A stretch of DNA of 64,000 nucleotides from an uncultured Flavobacteriaceae bacterium (GTDB taxonomy: Bacteria; Bacteroidota; Bacteroidia; Flavobacteriales; Flavobacteriaceae). Shown in pieces: positions 28,509 to 32,607 of this stretch. The DNA is taken from the NCBI GenBank assembly GCA_963793275.1, contig CAWBZL010000002.1:101590-165589 (forward strand), in the 5' to 3' direction. The translations under genes and the position numbers were made by a program. The number at the start of each line of letters is the position of its first letter. Within the stretch, counting starts at the first letter, position 1. The notes under the pieces were generated by a model. It was not told the origin of the DNA. It worked only from the letters and a program-made list of their open reading frames with translations, and searched no databases.

Positions 28509-28726
28509 AATCCCTTAGAATCAATCTAAATCAGAACAATAATTTTGAAAACTGCATCATTTTTCATCATATTTGCCACCAAATGAGAACGATTAGTTTA
28601 CATACACCACAAATAGGACTGAATTTTCAGTGGGAATATCGTGCGATGAAAAATTCAGATTCACGGTACAGGGCGTTATGTAACTTTTTTTGAGATAAAA
28701 ATAAACTCTAAAACAACATTTATATA

Positions 28727-28755
28727 AAGCGTCCGATCCAACGGGCGCTTTTTTT
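28727..28755 (+). terminator. Rho-independent terminator
   Basis: GCGTCCG (28729-28735) pairs with CGGGCGC (28742-28748), including one G-U, followed by T7. Confidence 0.6.
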
Positions 28756-29124
28756 ATGAATTTTTTTACTGAATGATAAAATTTTAAGGCACACATAAAA
28801 ATGTAGGCATTGACGTATAAGCAACAGAGAGACAACAGTTTGCAAACAAGGCCAGAAATCTGCAATAATCGGACAGGGAATTGCTATGCTTTAAATTAAT
28901 GTAAATAACTGATAATCAACAAAATAAAATTAAAAATTAGTTGTGTAATTCAAAAATACATTTCATATTTGCACCGCAGTTATGATATAGATAACTGCTT
29001 TAAAAAACTATAAATTTAAAATAAGAAGCTATGCGATTTCAAACGTATATAGATCAAAAAACAGGAAGTGAAAGTTTCCTCAGCAAAACGCTTCGCGATT
29101 ATAATTAGAATAATTTCTTCTATG

Positions 29125-29161
29125 AAAAATCCGAAGCAACTCCACCGTTTCGGATTTTTTT
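29125..29161 (+). terminator. Rho-independent terminator
   Basis: ATCCGAA (29129-29135) pairs with TTCGGAT (29149-29155), flanked by an A run and T7. Confidence 0.6.
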
Positions 29162-29228
29162 ATGCCTTTTTCTAAAAGGATCCTACAAGTTCGTTACGGT
29201 GATTAAGAACACATTAAAGATCACTAAA

Positions 29229-29804
29229 ATGAACACAAATACACATAATTTATACTTATTCAAGGCTATGGAGGCATACCCTTGGGACCTTGAAAAAGCG
29301 GTTGAAGCATTGCAATATGCTTTGTCTTACGAACCAGAAAACGTAACCGCCCTTTGTTTGATGGCAAAAGTACACGCCGAACAACTAAGCGATTATGAAA
29401 CCGCAAAAAGCTATTTTGAAAAAGCAGTAGCAAGCGATATACGTGCCACCAAAATATATCCGGATTATGTACGTACGTTACTACAGAATCACGATTTTGA
29501 GGAAGCTCAAAAGCTGATAGATTTTGCGATGACTGTAAAAGCGGTGGATAGAGGTGGTTTACAATTATTGCAAGGGCAATTGTTTGAAAACTTGCAAAAG
29601 TTTGAAAAAGCTGAAGCAGCTTTAAAAGAAGCTCGTAACCTAGGGTTAAATTCAGATTTTATCGAATTTGTTGAAAGCGAATTGGAGCGCGTCACCAAAA
29701 AAAGGGAACGCCAAAACAATGAGCAAAAAACCGACAACTCTAAGGAAACAGCTAAAACGGAAGATTCAAAAAGCTGGGTCCACAGGCTAAGTAGCTTACT
29801 ATAA
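29229..29804 (+). CDS. TPR-like helical repeat protein with charged C-terminal tail
   Basis: Helical repeat pattern (ALCLMAKVHAEQLSDYETAKSYFEKAV). ATG at 29229 preferred over the upstream GTG. Confidence 0.55.
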   Translation: MNTNTHNLYLFKAMEAYPWDLEKAVEALQYALSYEPENVTALCLMAKVHAEQLSDYETAKSYFEKAVASDIRATKIYPDYVRTLLQNHDFEEAQKLIDFAMTVKAVDRGGLQLLQGQLFENLQKFEKAEAALKEARNLGLNSDFIEFVESELERVTKKRERQNNEQKTDNSKETAKTEDSKSWVHRLSSLL

Positions 29805-29849
29805 ATCAGGATAAAATCTAAGTTTAATTTATAAAGGAAACAATAAAAT

Positions 29850-29871
29850 CCGCTCTCTGTAAAGAGGGTGG
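29850..29871 (+). other. GNRA-capped hairpin immediately upstream of the tRNA array
   Basis: CCGCTCTCT-gtaa-AGAGGGTGG, 9 bp including two G-U pairs that are valid only on the + strand. Confidence 0.6.
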
Positions 29872-29876
29872 TATAC

Positions 29877-29960
29877 GGGAGTGCGTCAACGCTGGAGAGT
29901 TGAGATAGTCTGTAAAACTATTCCTTAGTAGCTGAATAGGTTCAAATCCTTTCACTCCCA
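29877..29960 (+). tRNA. tRNA-Tyr (GTA), class II, 84 nt
   Basis: Acceptor GGGAGTG/CACTCCC, anticodon arm ATAGT-CTGTAAA-ACTAT, variable stem TTAG/CTGA, T loop TTCAAAT. Atypical C8 and one U-U mismatch in the T stem. No encoded CCA. Confidence 0.75.
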
Positions 29961-29963
29961 CAG

Positions 29964-30036
29964 AGTACCGTAGTTCAAAGGCTGGAGCGTCCGGTTGTCT
30001 CCCGGAAAGGTACGGGTTCGAGTCCCGTCGGTACTG
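29964..30036 (+). tRNA. tRNA-Asp (GTC)
   Basis: Acceptor AGTACCG/CGGTACT, D arm GTTC/GAGC, anticodon arm TCCGG-TTGTCTC-CCGGA, T arm ACGGG-TTCGAGT-CCCGT, discriminator G. Atypical A1-U72 and U37. Confidence 0.85.
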
Positions 30037-30115
30037 CGAATGATATTGAAGGAGTTTGCATCGGGACGAGAAGTTTATCCTGAGTAGTGGTGAGGCACGA
30101 GCCGCGAATCGAAGG

Positions 30116-30130
30116 GAGTCCCGTCGGTAC
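30116..30130 (+). repeat. 15-nt direct copy of the tRNA-Asp 3' end (GAGTCCCGTCGGTAC)
   Basis: Identical to 30020-30034, the T-loop/T-stem/acceptor 3' strand of tRNA-Asp, and lies 96 nt downstream of it. Confidence 0.85.
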
Positions 30131-30168
30131 GGTCATGCCTCCGACGAGAGAGGCACGAACCAGAGGAA

Positions 30169-30240
30169 GGCACTTTAGCATAGTGGTTGGTGCACCTCAC
30201 TTTCTATGAGGAGACCAGGGTTTGATTCCCTGATGGAGTA
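30169..30240 (+). pseudogene. tRNA-Glu(TTC)-like unit with non-pairing acceptor strands
   Basis: The D arm GCAT/GTGC and anticodon arm CCTCA-CTTTCTA-TGAGG are good, and the T stem CAGGG/CCCTG pairs. But the T loop is TTTGATT (no C56), position 37 is U, and 5' GGCACTT versus 3' ATGGAGT pair at only 3 of 7 positions. Confidence 0.5.
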
Positions 30241-30244
30241 CAAT

Positions 30245-30340
30245 GGGCTTATGGTGTAGCGGATAGCATGCTTGGCTTCGAACCAAGTGGTATGTTGCCT
30301 GTGCCGCACTTGATGCGGTATTCAAATCCTGTTAAGCCCA
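30245..30340 (+). ncRNA. 96-nt tRNA-Arg(TCG)-like element with an inserted hairpin and no canonical T stem
   Basis: Perfect acceptor GGGCTTA/TAAGCCC, D arm GTGT/GCAT, anticodon arm CTTGG-CTTCGAA-CCAAG. This is followed by 33 nt containing hairpin CCGCA-cttga-TGCGG (30304-30318). A TTCAAAT loop is present but its flanks (CGGTA / CCTGT) do not pair. Confidence 0.5.
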
Positions 30341-30345
30341 CAAAT

Positions 30346-30418
30346 TGAGGTATAACTCAGCGGCTAGAGTACCGTGCTTTTAACACGGGAGTCCTAGGTT
30401 CAAATCCTAGTGCCTCAA
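30346..30418 (+). tRNA. tRNA-Lys (TTT)
   Basis: Acceptor TGAGGTA/TGCCTCA (one G-U), D arm ACTC/GAGT, anticodon arm CCGTG-CTTTTAA-CACGG, T arm CTAGG-TTCAAAT-CCTAG. U1-A72. Confidence 0.85.
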
Positions 30419-30422
30419 CAAT

Positions 30423-30493
30423 AAACCCATAGTGTAGTGGTAGCACACAAGATTTTGATTCTTGGGGTCTGAGTTCGAATCTCGGTGGGTTTA
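30423..30493 (+). tRNA. tRNA-Gln (TTG)
   Basis: Acceptor AAACCCA/TGGGTTT, D arm GTGT/GCAC, anticodon arm CAAGA-TTTTGAT-TCTTG, T arm CTGAG-TTCGAAT-CTCGG. Confidence 0.85.
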
Positions 30494-30501
30494 CACTATA
30501 T

Positions 30502-30574
30502 GGAACAGTAGCAAAGCGGGTCAATGCACTGGATTGAAGCTCCAGGAATACGGGTTCGAGTCCTGTCTGTTCCA
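30502..30574 (+). tRNA. tRNA-Phe (GAA)
   Basis: Acceptor GGAACAG/CTGTTCC, anticodon arm CTGGA-TTGAAGC-TCCAG, T arm ACGGG-TTCGAGT-CCTGT. Confidence 0.85.
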
Positions 30575-30730
30575 CGAAAGGTCTGTAACGCAGATGATAG
30601 TATCAAGCGGGTCTTGTTGTGTGTTTCGGTATAGCACCATTGCATACGGCGTTGCAACTAGTATTGCGAACGTATGTGCAACTTGACTTGAAGGTTTTGC
30701 TGTTTTCCAAAAAATAGCGGCAATCGTTTC

Positions 30731-30754
30731 GTGGGTTCGAATCCCACTCCCGCC
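30731..30754 (+). other. orphan tRNA T arm plus 3' acceptor-type strand with no matching 5' strand upstream
   Basis: GTGGG-TTCGAAT-CCCAC followed by TCCCGCC. No GGCGGGA-like partner exists in the preceding 156 nt. Confidence 0.6.
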
Positions 30755-30757
30755 CAA

Positions 30758-30842
30758 GCAGGGATAGCGTAGTGGTTAACGCACCAGATAAAGGATCTGG
30801 CAAACGAGAGCAGATGTCGCGGGTTCGACTCCCGCTCCCAAT
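30758..30842 (+). ncRNA. 85-nt tRNA-like element with a non-canonical anticodon loop (TAAAGGA) and an 18-nt variable region
   Basis: D arm GCGT-AGTGGTTA-ACGC and T arm GCGGG-TTCGACT-CCCGC are perfect. Anticodon stem CCAGA/TCTGG pairs, but loop position 33 is A (or a 6-bp stem with a 5-nt loop forms). Own acceptor strands GCAGGGA / TCCCAAT pair at only 4-5 positions. Confidence 0.45.
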
Positions 30843-30846
30843 GTAA

Positions 30847-30916
30847 ATTGGGGTAGCTCAGTTGGTAGAGCACTGCACTTTTAATGCAGGTAATGGACTC
30901 AAAATCCATCATCGTA
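30847..30916 (+). pseudogene. tRNA-Lys(TTT)-like unit lacking a matching 3' acceptor strand
   Basis: ATTGGGG-TA-GCTC-AGTTGGTA-GAGC and the anticodon arm CTGCA-CTTTTAA-TGCAG are canonical. The T arm ATGGA-CTCAAAA-TCCAT lacks TTC. The 3' strand CATCGTA does not pair with the 5' strand. Confidence 0.5.
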
Positions 30917-30973
30917 AAGAAGGTCAACTTTTAAAAAAGACCACCAGCCTGTCACGCTGTTAAATTTGACAAA

Positions 30974-31336
30974 AATAGTATGGGAAGCGTCGGTTTAGAT
31001 TTGCTGAAACGTGAATGAAGAACACTCCTGAAAGTACCTTGAGTGGCGCCGGTGGCTAGTAAAGAATAAATTTCTTTGTGAGCATTTTGAAACCATTGAA
31101 CCTTTTTATTAGGAATCCGTACCTGGAGCCTACTAAAAGGAAGGATGTGGTTTCAACGCCTTACAAACAGGTTTTGTAACTGGTAGCCACCCCGTCACTC
31201 CGTCACTGGAAAGAGGATGTGCCCTGTACTGTTTTTAATTGAAAAGGATTGCGTTAGGGATTGAGCGTTATGTATGAGCTCTTTTTAATTGTTTGAGCAA
31301 TTAGAAAAGCGAGTAGCGAAAGCCCGACCCAGTATT
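30974..31336 (+). ncRNA. candidate large structured RNA (four-way-junction core at 31023-31221)
   Basis: No ORF longer than 14 aa across 30917-31345. Hand-found nested helices include a 16-bp helix 31041-31058/31184-31200 enclosing three hairpins. See findings for details. Confidence 0.4.
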
Positions 31337-31448
31337 GCTTGAGGTATGAAAAGCGATATTGGGAAACGCCCAAAATACAAAAGAAATACACGGTCCCCGT
31401 TACAGACTGTGTTGTTAACTGAATGTTTAATTTCTAAAACTTAAAAAA

Positions 31449-32552
31449 ATGAAAAGAGTTAGAATTAATACCGGAATGGTAGGTTTGGTCTTCAAGAGAG
31501 GAGATTACAAACGAGTAGTAACACAAGGTGTCTATTGGTTAAGCTTTGGAGAGCGTGTTGTAAAATACAACCTTGCCGAAGCCATGCGCAAGGCACCCGT
31601 AGCATTAGAAATTCTTGAAAGGGACGAAGCTTTGGTGGCCCTTTGGCACCAGGTAGATGTTTTGGATACAGAATTGGTCATCGTTTATAAGAACGGCCAA
31701 TACAACCAGATATTAACAGCTGGAAGATATGTATTCTGGAAAGGGTTGATAGACTACAGCTTTACACGTGTAGACCTTACAAAGATCTATATCACGGAAG
31801 CGATTGATACGTCACTTTTTGCCAAATTAGAATTGGCCAAGTATATCCGTTCTTTTGAAGTGGCAACATCTGAAAAAGCGGTGCTTTTAGTAGACGATGT
31901 TTATGTGAAAACCTTAACCGGTGGTACGTACCGCTTCTGGAGAAATGAAACCACTATTAAAATTGCAAAAGCAGATATGCGACAATTGCAATTGGAAGTA
32001 GCTGGACAGGAATTGTTAACCAAGGATAAAGCGGCAATCCGTATCAACTTTTACGCGCAGTATAAAGTAAGCAATGTGGAGCGAGCGCTCTTGGAAAATA
32101 AGGACTACGAGAAGCAATTATACGTGGCTATGCAGTTGGCGTTACGTGCGTATGTAGGTACGTATACTTTAGACGAACTTTTGGAAAACAAATCACAAAT
32201 CGCGAACGCTGTGTTTGAAGACACAAAGACAGCCGCAGATAAATTGGGTGTTACGGTAGTATACTGTGGAATCCGGGATGTGATCTTAACCGGGGAAATG
32301 AAGGACATCATGAACCAGGTGTTGGTTGCACAAAAGAAAGCTCAGGCTAATGTAATTACAAGACGTGAAGAAACAGCTTTGACCAGAAGCTTGTTGAATA
32401 CCGCCAAATTAATGGAGGACAATACCATGCTTTACAAATTGAAAGAGATGGAATACGTAGAGAAAATTGCCGACAAGATTGGCGAGATCACCGTTTCCGG
32501 AAACGGAAACATGGTGAAACAATTAACCGAAATTTTTGCGGTGAGCAAATAG
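31449..32552 (+). CDS. SPFH/band-7 (slipin-like) domain protein
   Basis: The C-terminal half matches the SPFH pattern (LTKDKAAIRINFYAQYKV..., coiled-coil tail). Confidence 0.8.
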   Translation: MKRVRINTGMVGLVFKRGDYKRVVTQGVYWLSFGERVVKYNLAEAMRKAPVALEILERDEALVALWHQVDVLDTELVIVYKNGQYNQILTAGRYVFWKGLIDYSFTRVDLTKIYITEAIDTSLFAKLELAKYIRSFEVATSEKAVLLVDDVYVKTLTGGTYRFWRNETTIKIAKADMRQLQLEVAGQELLTKDKAAIRINFYAQYKVSNVERALLENKDYEKQLYVAMQLALRAYVGTYTLDELLENKSQIANAVFEDTKTAADKLGVTVVYCGIRDVILTGEMKDIMNQVLVAQKKAQANVITRREETALTRSLLNTAKLMEDNTMLYKLKEMEYVEKIADKIGEITVSGNGNMVKQLTEIFAVSK

Positions 32553-32572
32553 TGCCTTAACGGTAGGTGCAA

Positions 32573-32607
32573 GCACTGGGAGTTATATAACTTCTGGTGC
32601 TTTTTTT
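32573..32607 (+). terminator. Rho-independent terminator after the SPFH gene
   Basis: About 12-bp stem 32573-32584/32589-32600 with several G-U pairs valid only on the + strand, then T7 (32601-32607). Overlaps the 3' end of the convergent small ORF. Confidence 0.6.

What the first reader, a model, noticed from the sequence alone, without database searches (positions are those of the whole stretch)
30974..31336. Candidate large structured RNA directly downstream of the tRNA array: 16-bp long-range helix closing a compact four-way junction
No ORF longer than 14 aa exists across 30917-31345. Several helices were found by hand. Helix (a) pairs 31023-31029 with 31214-31221 (7 bp, one bulge). Helix (b) pairs GAGTGGCG-cc-GGTGGCTA (31041-31058) with TAGCCACC-c-CGTCACTC (31184-31200), giving 16 bp with one G-U (31046-31195). 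Inside helix (b) sit exactly three hairpins: 31059-31079 (8 bp, 5-nt loop); a 70-nt arm at 31087-31156 (TTGAAACCA/TGGTTTCAA 9 bp, CCTTTT/AAAAGG 6 bp, TAGG/CCTA 4 bp, TCC/GGA 3 bp); and 31161-31179 (TTACAAA/TTTGTAA, 7 bp). The linkers between them are only 7, 4 and 4 nt. Outer pairings between 30974-30993 and 31324-31336 (4+3+5 bp) could close a roughly 360-nt domain that also includes the hairpin at 31281-31309 (11 bp plus a bulge) and tandem GATTG(A)GCGTTA repeats (31247-31272). The G-U pairs are valid only on the + strand, the same orientation as the tRNAs. Large ornate RNAs adjacent to tRNA clusters are the reported context of ROOL and GOLLD RNAs. I cannot tell from memory whether this sequence belongs to any known family.
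Basis: partly seen in the sequence, partly recalled or inferred. Interest (0 to 1): 0.8.

Follow-up and report, generated by a model that had tools for sequence, protein, structure and literature searches.

The report
Chained tRNA-mimic RNA before slipin gene
The flagged stretch is the back two-thirds of a real, previously undescribed, roughly 640-base folded RNA that marine Flavobacteriaceae keep between a tRNA gene cluster and a stomatin-like (slipin) gene; its front end is a chain of tRNA look-alikes locked together by capped stems.

Summary

- **Extent.** Window 30849-31238 (+) is one copy of a ~390-nt RNA. It occurs in 73/80 Flavobacteriaceae loci chosen by the neighbouring protein, and in 21/21 true hits of an RNA-only metagenome scan. 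It always lies 60-330 nt upstream of an SPFH/slipin gene, on the same strand.
- **Covariation.** 51 of 59 pairs show compensatory changes (0/500 shuffles).
The 16-bp helix is real, and its first 8-9 bp are conserved. Inside it, homologs and the window's own MFE form a rod, not a four-way junction. Positions 31248-31333 are a separate, weak Flavo-1-like element.
- **Upstream extension.** The conserved RNA also includes a domain E2 (30603-30747) and tRNA-like units. These are joined by closed 7-bp "acceptor" hairpins between one unit's T-arm and the next unit's D-arm. Across 89 junctions 86% of positions pair, against 39% for normal acceptor pairing. YrlA has this topology.
- **Novelty.** No Rfam family or paper matches; it is not ROOL or GOLLD.
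- **Function.** Unknown. My best guess is a processing-resistant tRNA-mimic RNA working with, or regulating, the slipin gene.

The parts
29199..29804 (+). TPR-repeat protein gene. First gene of the conserved block TPR, tRNAs, RNA, SPFH.
   Evidence: Pfam TPR families. A homolog lies upstream on the same strand in 42/80 loci within the 4-kb flank.
29877..30575 (+). Array of ordinary tRNA genes (Tyr, Asp, Glu, Lys, Gln, Phe), with degenerate tRNA remnants between them.
   Evidence: ARAGORN and Rfam tRNA hits. The array has 0-15 genes in homologous loci.
30603..30747 (+). Domain E2. Long outer stem 30603-30612 with 30681-30691 (one bulged A), two inner hairpins, V hairpin 30699-30718, and T-arm(1) 30731-30747.
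   Evidence: nhmmer match in 77/80 genome loci and 19 of the 21 metagenome loci that carry the RNA; the loci that lack it are cut off upstream. RNAalifold structure, with compensatory changes visible in the outer stem and V hairpin.
30748..30764 (+). Closed 'acceptor' hairpin A1 (TCCCGCC-caa-GCAGGGA, 5 of 7 paired). It joins T-arm(1) to D-arm(2).
   Evidence: Junction statistics. L001 has CCGCC/GGCGG at this place. YrlA model 24.3 bits at 30729-30782.
30765..30835 (+). Middle tRNA-like unit: D-arm, anticodon-like arm, long variable region, and T-arm(2) 30819-30835. It cannot form an acceptor stem of its own across the family.
   Evidence: ARAGORN calls it 'tRNA-Leu(AAG)'; Rfam tRNA 40.9 bits with two mismatched acceptor pairs. 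Normal acceptor pairing of middle units is 39% and never above 5/7. The number of such units varies from 0 to 2.
30836..30853 (+). Closed 'acceptor' hairpin A2 (TCCCAAT-gtaa-ATTGGGG, 7 of 7 paired). It joins T-arm(2) to D-arm(3).
   Evidence: 89 unique junctions, 86% paired, all four Watson-Crick pair types at every position. YrlA model 42.4 bits at 30811-30878.
30854..30909 (+). tRNA-like head of the ~390-nt RNA: D-arm 30856-30871, anticodon arm 30873-30889 (loop CUUUUAA), and T-loop-like hairpin H2 30893-30909 (loop CUCAAAA). No 3' acceptor strand.
   Evidence: Rfam tRNA 36.4 bits, model positions 7-64 only. D, anticodon and H2 stems are 95%, 98% and 80% paired, with compensatory changes. 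The anticodon varies between genera.
30922..30958 (+). Hairpin H3 (30922-30942, conserved loop CUUUUAAAA) and hairpin H4 (30946-30958, conserved loop CUGUCAC).
   Evidence: A1 helices 5 and 6: 92.5% and 91.6% paired, and every pair shows compensatory changes.
30961..30975 (+). Conserved linker TAAATTTGACAAAAA. The A-tract pairs with the 3' U-tract. It also resembles, weakly, a Bacteroidetes -7 promoter box.
   Evidence: Family consensus TAAAAATG-AC-AAAAA. TAnnTTTG match at 30961, with about 1.3 matches per 2.7 kb estimated by hand from base composition.
30971..30991 (+). P1, 5' strand: the long-range helix that closes the ~265-nt 3' domain.
   Evidence: MFE. A1 columns 210-230 with 513-530: 16 of 18 pairs show compensatory changes.
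30993..31023 (+). P2 hairpin, a branch of the three-way junction P1/P2/P3.
   Evidence: MFE. A1 columns 233-235 with 301-303: all 3 pairs covary.
31025..31040 (+). P3 5' strand (31025-31028) and conserved junction strand UGAAAGUACCUU (31029-31040).
   Evidence: A1 columns 306-309 with 509-512 are 97% paired. The junction nucleotides are nearly invariant.
31041..31200 (+). Rod-like arm.
   Evidence: Pair probabilities, and rod versus four-way-junction energies. Rod folds in 28 of 30 homologs. Helix b covaries.
31201..31238 (+). Conserved junction strand (CGUCACUGGAA), P3 3' strand (31212-31215), P1 3' strand (31216-31236), and the U-tract that ends the conserved RNA.
   Evidence: The U-run follows P1 in all 52 aligned sequences.
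31248..31333 (+). Flavo-1-like element, separate from the large RNA.
   Evidence: Rfam Flavo-1 aligned end to end but at 15.8 bits (gathering score 42). A true Flavo-1 (54.3 bits) sits at the same place in L026. The element is present only in some loci.
31388..31412 (+). Hairpin H5 in the slipin leader (ACACGGTC/GACTGTGT, loop CCCGUUACA). It is followed by the conserved AAUGUUUAAUUU and an A-rich leader.
   Evidence: The stem sequence differs between genera while pairing is kept, and the loop CCGUUAC is conserved (read from the alignment; RNAalifold gave no consensus there).
31449..32552 (+). SPFH/Band 7 'slipin family' gene (367 aa), the invariable downstream neighbour of the RNA.
   Evidence: Pfam Band_7; closest solved relatives are stomatins; named 'slipin family protein' by NCBI. 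Downstream of the RNA in 73/73 genome loci and 21/21 metagenome loci. Intrinsic terminator at 32571-32602.

Best explanation
**What it is (shown).** The finding lies inside a conserved, heavily base-paired RNA of about 640 nt, window ~30603-31238 on the + strand. This RNA forms the tail of a tRNA operon and sits directly upstream of a slipin (SPFH) gene in Flavobacteriaceae. From 5' to 3' it contains:
- domain E2;
- a chain of tRNA-like units in which the strand after one unit's T-arm pairs with the strand before the next unit's D-arm, giving capped 7-bp 'acceptor' hairpins (A1, A2) instead of free tRNA ends;
- an anticodon arm;
- a T-loop hairpin;
- two further hairpins;

**How it most likely works (inferred).**
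- The whole block is transcribed with the tRNAs.
- RNase P and RNase Z remove the genuine tRNAs.
- The tail cannot be cut up, because its acceptor stems are swapped between neighbours and mostly capped by 3-5-nt loops.
- It therefore survives as one stable RNA that shows two tRNA 'elbows' plus a large 3' domain.
- This RNA acts together with the product of the gene it always precedes. It would serve as the RNA partner or scaffold of the slipin, and possibly of the TPR protein, in the way Y RNAs are encoded beside Ro and OLE RNA beside OapA.
- The helix P1 followed by a U-tract lets only part of the strong tRNA-operon transcription run on into the slipin gene.
For: **Shown**
- *Conservation.* 73/80 loci picked through the protein carry the RNA (window E = 2.7e-60). 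So do 21/21 true hits of an RNA-only pattern scan of metagenomes; in all of these loci it lies upstream of the slipin gene on the same strand.
- *E2.* It is present in every locus that has enough upstream sequence.
- *Synteny.* The TPR gene is kept upstream, while the downstream genes are not conserved (HDAC 7/80, Tex 6/80).
- *Covariation in the ~390-nt part.* 86.9% of cells are paired against 74.3% when shuffled. 51 of 59 pairs show double changes, with 0/500 shuffles reaching this. Slid controls give 36-50%.
- *Closed acceptor hairpins.* With anchors set independently, 86% of positions pair in 89 unique junctions, 45 of them 7/7. Shuffled partners give 48% (maximum 55%). The units' own acceptor pairing is 39% and never exceeds 5/7.
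- *Loops.* Loop lengths are mostly 3-5 nt.
- *Topology.* It is the same as the YrlA tRNA-like domain: partial Rfam hits of 42.4 and 24.3 bits, aligned through T-arm, acceptor-like stem and D-arm.
- *Transcription unit.* There is no canonical terminator on the + strand between 28751 and 32571.
- *Strand.* The + strand folds better than the - strand.

**From the literature**
- Pairing that extends the acceptor stem inhibits RNase P (PMC9433436, abstract).
- Only a YrlA with a 7-bp acceptor stem is cut by RNase P (PMC4201824).
- Y RNAs are encoded next to, and processed together with, their partner gene.
Against: - No transcript data of any kind were available, so the ends, the processing and even continuity between E2 and the 3' domain are inferred.
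- About a quarter of the junctions have loops of 15-35 nt, which RNase P/Z could reach. The RNA may therefore be cut into pieces held together by base pairing.
- Nothing shows that the slipin or the TPR protein binds RNA. The slipin has no recognisable RNA-binding domain.
- Strict adjacency is explained equally well by a purely cis-regulatory leader.
- P1 plus the U-tract is not a canonical terminator, because its 'loop' is ~225 nt.
- In the Tenacibaculum and Polaribacter loci the family profile does not detect the 3' domain, and in the one read through (L079) it is reduced; E2 is still detected. The parts may therefore not all serve one function.
Confidence: 0.4

Rival explanations
1. A purely cis-acting leader. 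The ~640-nt structure is the 5' untranslated region of the slipin mRNA. It controls the gene by attenuation at P1 plus the U-tract, or through mRNA stability or translation. It might sense a ligand, or the state of tRNA processing or modification, through its tRNA-like modules.
For: - Position and orientation are invariable, 60-330 nt upstream of the slipin start, in 94 loci.
- There is no canonical terminator, and no strict Bacteroidetes promoter match between 31000 and 31448.
- A conserved leader hairpin H5 has a loop (CCGUUAC) that resembles the H4 loop (CUGUCAC) and junction J3.
- Junction nucleotides are highly conserved, as in ligand-binding RNAs.
Against: - It is far larger and more modular than known leaders.
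- The spacer between the U-tract and H5 tolerates insertions, including a Flavo-1-type element. The structure is therefore not positioned relative to the ribosome-binding region.
- No alternative (anti-terminator) pairing was found.
- The number of tRNA-like units varies.
Confidence: 0.3
2. Two separate things. The P1-closed 3' domain (~30972-31238) is an independent small RNA of ~265 nt with its own promoter in the conserved linker, and with paired 5' and 3' ends plus a U-tail. E2 and the tRNA-like chain are only the trailer of the tRNA operon.
For: - TAAATTTG at 30961-30968 matches the Bacteroidetes -7 box TAnnTTTG. It would place the start ~5 nt downstream, exactly where P1 begins.
- The linker is strongly conserved in sequence, with TG-AC-AAAAA nearly invariant.
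- Paired termini followed by a U-run are typical of stable small RNAs.
- The family profile does not detect the 3' domain in the Tenacibaculum and Polaribacter loci, while E2 is still detected there; in L079, read through, the 3' domain is reduced.
Against: - The family consensus is TAAAAATG. It lacks the TTT of the box in most genera, and there is no -33 TTTG.
- By my estimate from base composition, about 1.3 such matches are expected by chance in the 2.7 kb scanned.
- The 5' head (D-arm to H4) is conserved as one piece with the 3' domain, at a fixed distance.
Confidence: 0.12
3. A bacterial Y RNA (YrlA-type) that works with a Ro60/Rsr protein encoded elsewhere in the genome.
For: - Partial YrlA matches (42.4 and 24.3 bits) cover T-arm, closed acceptor-like stem and D-arm.
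- The topology is the same as the published YrlA tRNA-like domain (PMC4201824).
Against: - The scores are below the gathering score of 69, and none of 10 homologous loci reaches it.
- There is no GNCGAAN0-1G Ro-binding motif in 30590-31245.
- There is no TROVE-domain protein among 18 ORFs of the window that were checked.
- The conserved neighbours are the TPR and slipin genes, not rsr.
- The authors warn that tandem tRNAs can mimic YrlA hits.
Confidence: 0.05
4. No function of its own: decaying tRNA pseudogenes and chance folding in a long intergenic spacer.
For: - The window's array does contain degenerate tRNA pieces (30040-30170 and 30245-30340).
- The number of tRNAs and of tRNA-like units varies between genera.
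Against: - Sequence and structure are kept across more than 20 genera.
- Compensatory changes occur in 51 of 59 pairs, and at every position of the junction hairpins.
- Pseudogenes would not keep swapped acceptor pairing while losing the normal one.
Confidence: 0.03
5. A member of a known large ornate RNA family (ROOL, GOLLD, HEARO, OLE, raiA).
For: Only the context: a large structured RNA next to a tRNA cluster, as reported for ROOL and GOLLD.
Against: - No Rfam 15 family matches the large RNA even at E<=10, apart from tRNA and YrlA fragments; the only other hit is the weak Flavo-1 match on the separate element at 31248-31333.
- The surroundings are chromosomal housekeeping genes.
- There is nothing in phage records or viral contigs.
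Confidence: 0.01

Closest known systems
YrlA bacterial Y RNA (Rfam RF02553), tRNA-like domain
   Same: - The order of elements is the same: T-arm, acceptor-like stem closed by a loop, then D-arm.
- T-loop and D-loop nucleotides are conserved.
- The Rfam model aligns to both junctions (42.4 and 24.3 bits).
- Some YrlA also have a 7-bp acceptor stem.
   Different: - Here the module occurs two or more times in series, made by swapping strands between neighbouring tRNA-like units.
- There is no Ro-binding helix or motif, and no rsr gene beside it.
- Scores are below threshold.
- It is attached to two large domains (E2 and the P1 domain) that YrlA lacks.
- The partner gene is a slipin.
GOLLD and ROOL RNAs
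   Same: - They are large, intricately folded RNAs of unknown function found beside tRNA clusters.
- GOLLD can carry covalently linked tRNAs in a linker (PMC12286853).
   Different: - There is no sequence or structure match.
- Those RNAs are phage or prophage borne, whereas this one is chromosomal, vertically conserved in one bacterial family and tied to a protein gene.
- Its tRNA-like units are not releasable tRNAs.
Flavo-1 RNA motif (Rfam RF01705)
   Same: Window 31248-31333 has the Flavo-1 core (GGGAUUGA-GCG ... GUAGCGA-AAGCCCGA) and its overall hairpin. A bona fide Flavo-1 occupies the same spot in L026.
   Different: - It scores 15.8 bits against a threshold of 42.
- It is an optional insert downstream of the large RNA, not part of it.
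- Flavo-1 hits are scattered in both orientations in F. psychrophilum, and their function is unknown (PMC9723704).
Precursors of circularly permuted (two-piece) tmRNA and permuted tRNA genes
   Same: The gene order is T-arm, 3' acceptor strand, loop, 5' acceptor strand. The acceptor stem is therefore closed by a loop in the primary transcript. (My own knowledge for tmRNA; PMC3978253 is listed for permuted tRNAs.)
   Different: Those loops are excised to give a functional, chargeable acceptor end. Here most loops are 3-5 nt, no CCA end or tag reading frame is evident, and the pieces cannot make a normal tRNA.
OLE RNA with OapA (my own knowledge)
   Same: A large conserved structured RNA encoded next to, and on the same strand as, the gene of a membrane-associated partner protein.
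   Different: There is no homology. It occurs in a different phylum, with a different partner family. Partnership is proven for OLE and only guessed here.

Membership tests
ROOL (Rfam) | Match to the family covariance model at or above its gathering score | tested here: not met
   No ROOL hit in the whole window at gathering score, nor in 29700-31500 at E<=10.
GOLLD (Rfam) | Match to the family covariance model; conserved 3' region | tested here: not met
   No GOLLD hit at gathering score or at E<=10, nor in 10 homologous loci.
ROOL / GOLLD | Phage or prophage context near tRNA islands | tested here: not met
   A tRNA island is present. The neighbours, however, are RecQ, TPR, slipin, HDAC-like, Tex and MetRS. 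There is no match in 50,697 phage records, and no viral contig hit for two family patterns.
YrlA (Y RNA-like, RF02553) | tRNA-like module: T-arm, closed acceptor-like stem, D-arm | tested here: met
   cmscan alignments at 30811-30878 and 30729-30782. The closed 7-bp stems are supported by covariation in 89 junctions.
YrlA (Y RNA-like, RF02553) | Covariance-model score at or above 69 bits | tested here: not met
   42.4 and 24.3 bits, covering model positions 23-88 and 29-81 of 114 only. No hit at gathering score in 10 loci.
YrlA (Y RNA-like, RF02553) | Ro-binding helix formed by the RNA ends, with the GNCGAAN0-1G motif (PMC4201824) | tested here: not met
   No G.CGAA.?G in 30590-31245. The ends of the modules lead into other tRNA-like units, not into a terminal helix.
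YrlA (Y RNA-like, RF02553) | Encoded near an rsr (Ro60/TROVE) gene | tested here: inconclusive
   No TROVE domain among 18 ORFs checked in the 64-kb window, and the conserved neighbours are the TPR and slipin genes. The rest of the genome could not be searched.
Flavo-1 (RF01705), for 31248-31333 only | Covariance-model score at or above 42 bits | tested here: not met
   15.8 bits, E = 0.75 in a 226-nt search.
Flavo-1 (RF01705), for 31248-31333 only | Conserved internal-loop nucleotides and end-to-end hairpin architecture | tested here: inconclusive
   Aligned over model positions 1-76 with most core nucleotides kept. The element at the same position in L026 passes at 54.3 bits. Relatives in L001 and L005 do not reach the threshold.
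tRNA, for units 30758-30843 and 30854-30909 | D, anticodon and T arms | tested here: met
   Rfam tRNA 40.9 and 36.4 bits. The arms covary.
tRNA, for units 30758-30843 and 30854-30909 | Acceptor stem formed by the unit's own 5' and 3' ends | tested here: not met
   Own-end pairing is 39% across 38 unique middle units and never above 5/7. The last unit matches model positions 7-64 only. ARAGORN does not call it.
Intrinsic terminator, for P1 plus the U-tract | Local G+C-rich hairpin (loop 3-8 nt) followed by a U-run | tested here: not met
   The U-run is present in all 52 sequences. The helix, however, encloses ~225 nt, and the scan finds no terminator there.
Riboswitch / cis-regulatory leader | Ligand- or signal-dependent switch between two structures that changes expression of the downstream gene | not testable with these tools
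   Only the position upstream of the slipin gene is shown. No alternative pairing was identified.

The most novel reading that the evidence does not exclude
A new class of large bacterial RNA in which tRNA units have been rewired. Each acceptor stem is formed between neighbouring units and capped, giving a processing-proof, domain-swapped chain of tRNA-shaped elbows fused to a 265-nt domain. This RNA would be the dedicated partner of a cage-forming stomatin/slipin protein, and perhaps of the TPR protein. It would form a vault-like or OLE-like ribonucleoprotein, or a self-assembling RNA like ROOL/GOLLD, and it would be common in marine Flavobacteriaceae.
Probability: 0.15. Interest if true: 0.95.

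Novelty: categorically new. Interest (0 to 1): 0.8.

Why it matters
- **Abundance.** Flavobacteriaceae are among the most abundant degraders of algal matter in the sea. A 640-nt RNA kept in more than 20 of their genera, and recovered directly from Tara and other marine metagenomes, would be a major uncharacterised RNA.
- **Unreported architecture.** Ordinary tRNA parts are re-paired between neighbours so that the chain cannot be cut into tRNAs. I did not find this design for any natural RNA in Rfam 15 or the literature searched. It bears on how new structured RNAs evolve from tRNA arrays.
- **Slipin function.** The RNA gives an experimentally tractable handle on the unknown function of a soluble bacterial slipin (SPFH protein). 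It also raises the possibility of a link between SPFH cages and RNA.
- **Practical uses.** tRNA finders call pieces of the chain as odd tRNAs (Leu-AAG, long Lys or Arg). A covariance model would clean up these annotations.

Tried and rejected
- **Rfam.** I searched the whole window at gathering score, three sub-regions at E<=10 or E<=1, and 10 homologous loci. Only tRNA, partial YrlA and Flavo-1 came up. ROOL, GOLLD, HEARO, OLE, raiA, 6S-Flavo and riboswitches are rejected.
- **Phage origin.** There is no blastn match in phage records, and no viral contig matches either of two family patterns.
  - The four-way junction is rejected on energy, pair probability and homologs.
  - The outer pairing to 31324-31336 is rejected. 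That stretch belongs to the Flavo-1-like insert, which is absent from most loci.
- **Ordinary tandem tRNAs scoring as a false YrlA.** Rejected, because the swapped stems covary and the normal ones do not pair.
- **Own promoter at the linker.** It is kept only as a weak rival.
- **Defence-system reading of the neighbours.** PADLOC gives nothing for the slipin or the TPR protein. The RecQ hits are generic helicase similarity.
- **RNA-binding domain in the slipin N-terminus.** Pfam at E<=10 shows only a second Band_7 start, so I did not pursue structure prediction.
- **Expression evidence.**
  - The F. psychrophilum transcriptome paper and its supplements contain no matching sequence. Its Band 7 gene is a different, shorter protein.
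  - Literature searches for tRNA arrays, tRNA-like RNAs, SPFH and structured RNAs in Flavobacteria, and the two Breaker-lab genome surveys, gave no prior description.
- **Global RNAalifold on the rod.** It recovers only helix (b), because the inner part is misaligned by MAFFT. The inner rod helices therefore rest on single-sequence folds and one compensatory change.
Full report
**1. Setting**

The window is a Flavobacteriaceae chromosome. G+C is about 39%, and the genes include RecQ, MetRS, Tex, SerRS and pyruvate kinase. The closest relative of the flanking protein is the MAG UBA1903.

The finding lies in a 530-nt gap. Upstream is a + strand tRNA array (29877-30843). Downstream is a + strand gene for a 367-aa SPFH/Band 7 protein at 31449-32552. 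NCBI names this protein 'slipin family protein', and its nearest solved relatives are stomatins. A TPR protein gene (29199-29804) precedes the array.

On the + strand, canonical intrinsic terminators are found only at 28726-28751 and 32571-32602. They bracket the block TPR, tRNAs, gap, slipin.

**2. Checking the observation**

|---|---|
| Helix (b), 31041-31058 with 31184-31200 | Exactly as described; in all folds; pair probability 0.97-1.0 |
| 70-nt arm 31087-31156 | Present in the MFE |
| Folding better than chance | z = -4.64 for 30974-31336; for 30849-31238, z = -3.56 on + and -1.96 on - |
| Hairpins 31059-31079 and 31161-31179 | Sequences can pair, but the segments prefer each other (UUUGUGAG with CUUACAAA) |
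| Four-way junction | -56.1 versus -62.4 kcal/mol for the rod; hairpin pair probabilities at most 0.02 |
| Outer pairing 30974-30993 with 31324-31336 | Not seen in any fold; 30971-30991 pairs with 31216-31236 instead |
| No ORF >14 aa | Only roughly true: with ATG starts on the + strand the longest ORF is 15 aa; 21-33 aa ORFs exist with other start codons or on the other strand |

**3. Homologs**

- I used the slipin protein to fetch 80 loci from one-genome-per-species contigs. blastn and nhmmer then showed that the gap is conserved.
- A profile built from an alignment of 52 copies (A1) finds the RNA in 73/80 of these loci. It is always on the same strand, just upstream of the slipin gene. It occurs once in the window, at 30849-31238 (E = 2.7e-60).
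- For a test independent of the protein, I scanned metagenome contigs with a degenerate DNA pattern taken from two conserved RNA motifs. Of 23 hits, 21 are true copies by the profile, and all 21 have the slipin gene directly downstream on the same strand. The other two hits have neither the RNA nor the gene, which is about the number of chance matches I had estimated beforehand (~2).
- Carriers span at least 20 named genera, including Aequorivita, Aquimarina, Maribacter, Zobellia, Winogradskyella, Dokdonia, Flagellimonas, Kordia, Olleya and Tamlana.
- The TPR gene is kept upstream in 42/80 loci within the 4-kb flank. The window's downstream genes are not kept (HDAC 7/80, Tex 6/80).
- The number of ordinary tRNAs between the TPR gene and the RNA ranges from 0 to 15.

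**4. Structure of the ~390-nt RNA (30849-31238)**

RNAalifold on A1 and a pair count on a 59-pair structure gave:
- 86.9% of cells paired, against 74.3% after shuffling;
- 51 pairs with changes on both sides, with 0/500 shuffles reaching this;
- 36-50% paired when partners are slid by 1-3 columns.

From 5' to 3' (window coordinates):
- D-arm 30856-30871;
- anticodon arm 30873-30889;
- T-loop-like hairpin H2, 30893-30909;
- hairpin H3, 30922-30942 (loop CUUUUAAAA);
- hairpin H4, 30946-30958 (loop CUGUCAC);
- linker TAAATTTGACAAAAA;
- long-range helix P1, 30971-30991 with 31216-31236, whose outer part is an A-tract paired with the terminal U-tract;
- hairpin P2, 30993-31023;
- P3, 31025-31028 with 31212-31215;
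- two nearly invariant junction strands (UGAAAGUACYUUGA and UUCCGU-N-GGAA);
- helix (b).

The family supports P3 plus inner P1.

Beyond helix (b), 28 of the 30 homologs folded form a long rod of stacked helices with internal loops. The window does the same.

A global alignment of the rod interior was too poor to count covariation there.

**5. The last 100 nt of the finding are something else**

- Window 31248-31333 aligns end to end to Rfam Flavo-1 and keeps the core nucleotides, but at only 15.8 bits against a threshold of 42.
- A true Flavo-1 (54.3 bits) lies at the same spot in L026.
- The element is present in only a few loci (L001, L005, L018, L093) and once elsewhere on the opposite strand.
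- Flavo-1 hits are scattered in both orientations in F. psychrophilum, and their function is unknown (PMC9723704).
- It is an optional insert between the large RNA and the slipin leader.

**6. The RNA extends upstream**

A second block, E2 (window 30603-30747), is found in 77/80 genome loci and in 19 of the 21 metagenome loci that carry the RNA. The loci that lack it are cut off by contig ends.

E2 comprises:
- a long outer stem with visible compensatory changes (for example CUGG/CUAG, CAAG/CUUG, CCAG/CUGG);
- inner hairpins;
- a covarying V hairpin;
- a canonical T-arm.

Between E2 and the ~390-nt RNA lie zero to two further tRNA-like units, usually one. In the window this unit is the 'tRNA-Leu(AAG)' at 30758-30843.

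**7. The swapped, capped acceptor stems**

The 7 nt after each T-arm pair with the 7 nt before the next D-arm. This forms a closed hairpin, followed by UA and the D-stem. In the window these are:
- A1, 30748-30764;
- A2, 30836-30853 (TCCCAAT-gtaa-ATTGGGG).

I set the two strands from independent anchors, the end of the T-arm and the start of the D-arm. The results were:
- 125 junctions, 89 of them unique;
- 86% of positions paired, with 45 junctions 7/7 and 22 junctions 6/7;
- all four Watson-Crick pair types at every position;
- shuffled partners give 48%, with a maximum of 55% in 1000 trials.

The normal tRNA pairing of a middle unit's own two ends is only 39% and never exceeds 5/7. In L001, for example, it cannot form at all. 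These units are therefore not tRNAs.

Each L-shaped module is instead built from the T-arm of one unit, a capped acceptor stem, and the D-arm of the next unit.

Loops are mostly 3-5 nt (68 of 125). A second class has loops of about 15-35 nt.

**8. Comparison with YrlA**

- The tRNA-like domain of bacterial YrlA Y RNAs has this same topology. The Rfam YrlA model aligns to both junctions, at 42.4 and 24.3 bits, through T-arm, acceptor-like stem and D-arm.
- Chen et al. (PMC4201824) showed that the M. smegmatis YrlA, which has a 7-bp closed stem, is cut by RNase P and receives CCA. Shorter-stem YrlAs are not cut. The authors also warn that dimeric tRNAs can give false hits.
- Here the covariation rules out the trivial explanation. 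Membership in YrlA nevertheless fails:
  - the scores are below 69 bits;
  - there is no Ro-binding motif;
  - there is no TROVE gene among 18 ORFs checked;
  - the conserved neighbours are the TPR and slipin genes.

**9. How it may work**

*Shown:* conservation, structure, strand, the swapped capped stems, and the invariable position upstream of the slipin gene.

*Inferred:*
- The block is co-transcribed with the tRNAs, because there is no terminator in between.
- RNase P and RNase Z release the true tRNAs.
- The tail resists processing. Pairing that extends the acceptor stem inhibits RNase P (PMC9433436, abstract), and most caps are tri- to pentaloops.
- The product is a stable RNA showing two tRNA elbows, variable anticodon loops and a large 3' domain. 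It ends at P1 plus the U-tract, or partly reads through it.

I favour (0.4) a role as the RNA partner of the slipin, and perhaps of the TPR protein. This is by analogy with Y RNA and Ro, and with OLE and OapA, which are likewise encoded side by side.

A purely cis-regulatory leader is nearly as likely (0.3). Just before the start codon sits a conserved hairpin H5 (31388-31412). Its stem differs between genera while pairing is kept, and its loop CCGUUAC resembles the H4 loop and junction J3. This could point to one factor binding both the RNA and the mRNA leader.

A third reading (0.12) makes the P1 domain a separate sRNA. It would start at a promoter-like TAAATTTG at 30961-30968. However, the family consensus TAAAAATG fits the Bacteroidetes -7 box poorly, and by my own estimate from base composition about 1.3 such matches would occur by chance in the scanned region.

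**10. Novelty**

- Rfam 15 has no family for E2, for the chain or for the P1 domain.
- Eight full-text literature searches, and the two recent bacterial ncRNA surveys, give no description.
- GOLLD and ROOL share only the tRNA-island context and, for GOLLD, covalently linked tRNAs.
- I therefore rate it as a new class of large RNA. One module has a known counterpart in YrlA. Function is unproven.

**11. Limits**

- There are no expression data.
- The inner rod is not tested by covariation.
- In the seven loci without a profile hit for the 3' domain (four Tenacibaculum, one Polaribacter and two truncated contigs), E2 is still detected in all five that have upstream sequence. In the one locus I read through (L079), the 3' domain is reduced.
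- The alignment behind the profile contains 52 of the 73 genome hits. Independent support therefore comes from the remaining 21 genome loci and the 21 metagenome loci.

Noticed in passing
window 30603-30747 (E2): A ~145-nt conserved domain inside what looks like the tRNA array. It has a long covarying stem, inner hairpins, a V hairpin and a canonical T-arm. It is present in every homologous locus with enough upstream sequence.
   Followed up: yes
window 30748-30764 and 30836-30853: Capped 7-bp hairpins made from the 3' acceptor strand of one tRNA-like unit and the 5' acceptor strand of the next. They covary strongly across 89 junctions, whereas normal acceptor pairing is not kept.
   Followed up: yes
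window 31248-31333: Flavo-1-like element (15.8 bits, below threshold), inserted between the large RNA and the slipin leader. A bona fide Flavo-1 sits at the same place in L026 3780-3882.
   Followed up: yes
window 31388-31412, then 31421-31448: Leader hairpin H5 with a stem whose sequence differs between genera while pairing is kept, and a conserved loop CCGUUAC. It is followed by a conserved AAUGUUUAAUUU and an A-rich stretch before the slipin start codon. The loop resembles the H4 loop (CUGUCAC) and the UCCGU of junction J3.
   Followed up: partly
window 30961-30968: TAAATTTG matches the Bacteroidetes -7 promoter box TAnnTTTG just before the 5' strand of P1. The family consensus (TAAAAATG) fits less well, and there is no -33 box.
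   Followed up: partly
window 30040-30170 and 30245-30340: Degenerate tRNA pieces within the array. One is a duplicated T-arm/acceptor fragment (GAGTCCCGTCGGTAC, twice). The other is a 96-nt 'tRNA' with an insertion, which Rfam scores at 39.5 bits and ARAGORN does not call.
   Followed up: no
loci L009, L011, L017: The homologous arrays contain unusual tRNA calls, such as tRNA-Tyr with anticodon ATA and a 'tRNA-Stop' with anticodon TTA. Some may be further tRNA-like units rather than real tRNAs.
   Followed up: no
L079 3680-3900 (Tenacibaculum), also L049, L069, L076, L078: In these Tenacibaculum and Polaribacter loci the family profile does not detect the 3' domain, while E2 is detected. In L079, the one locus read through, E2, H3 and the junction motifs (GUACUUUGAAAUA, UAUUUCCGU) are kept, but P1 with GAUGAU and the U-tract is not recognisable.
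   Followed up: partly
window 29033-29165: A possible 25-codon ORF, followed by a hairpin and T-run (AATCCGAA...TTCGGATTTTTTT), just upstream of the TPR gene. The terminator scan missed it because the loop is 13 nt.
   Followed up: no
window 31449-31580 (slipin residues 1-43): The N-terminus of the slipin also matches the start of the Band_7 profile (E = 7.9e-5), suggesting a partial internal duplication. I saw no obvious hydrophobic membrane segment when reading the translation.
   Followed up: partly
window 31192-31207: A direct repeat, CCGTCACT CCGTCACT. The first copy is the 3' strand of helix (b) and the second is the conserved junction J3. L001 does not have this repeat.
   Followed up: partly
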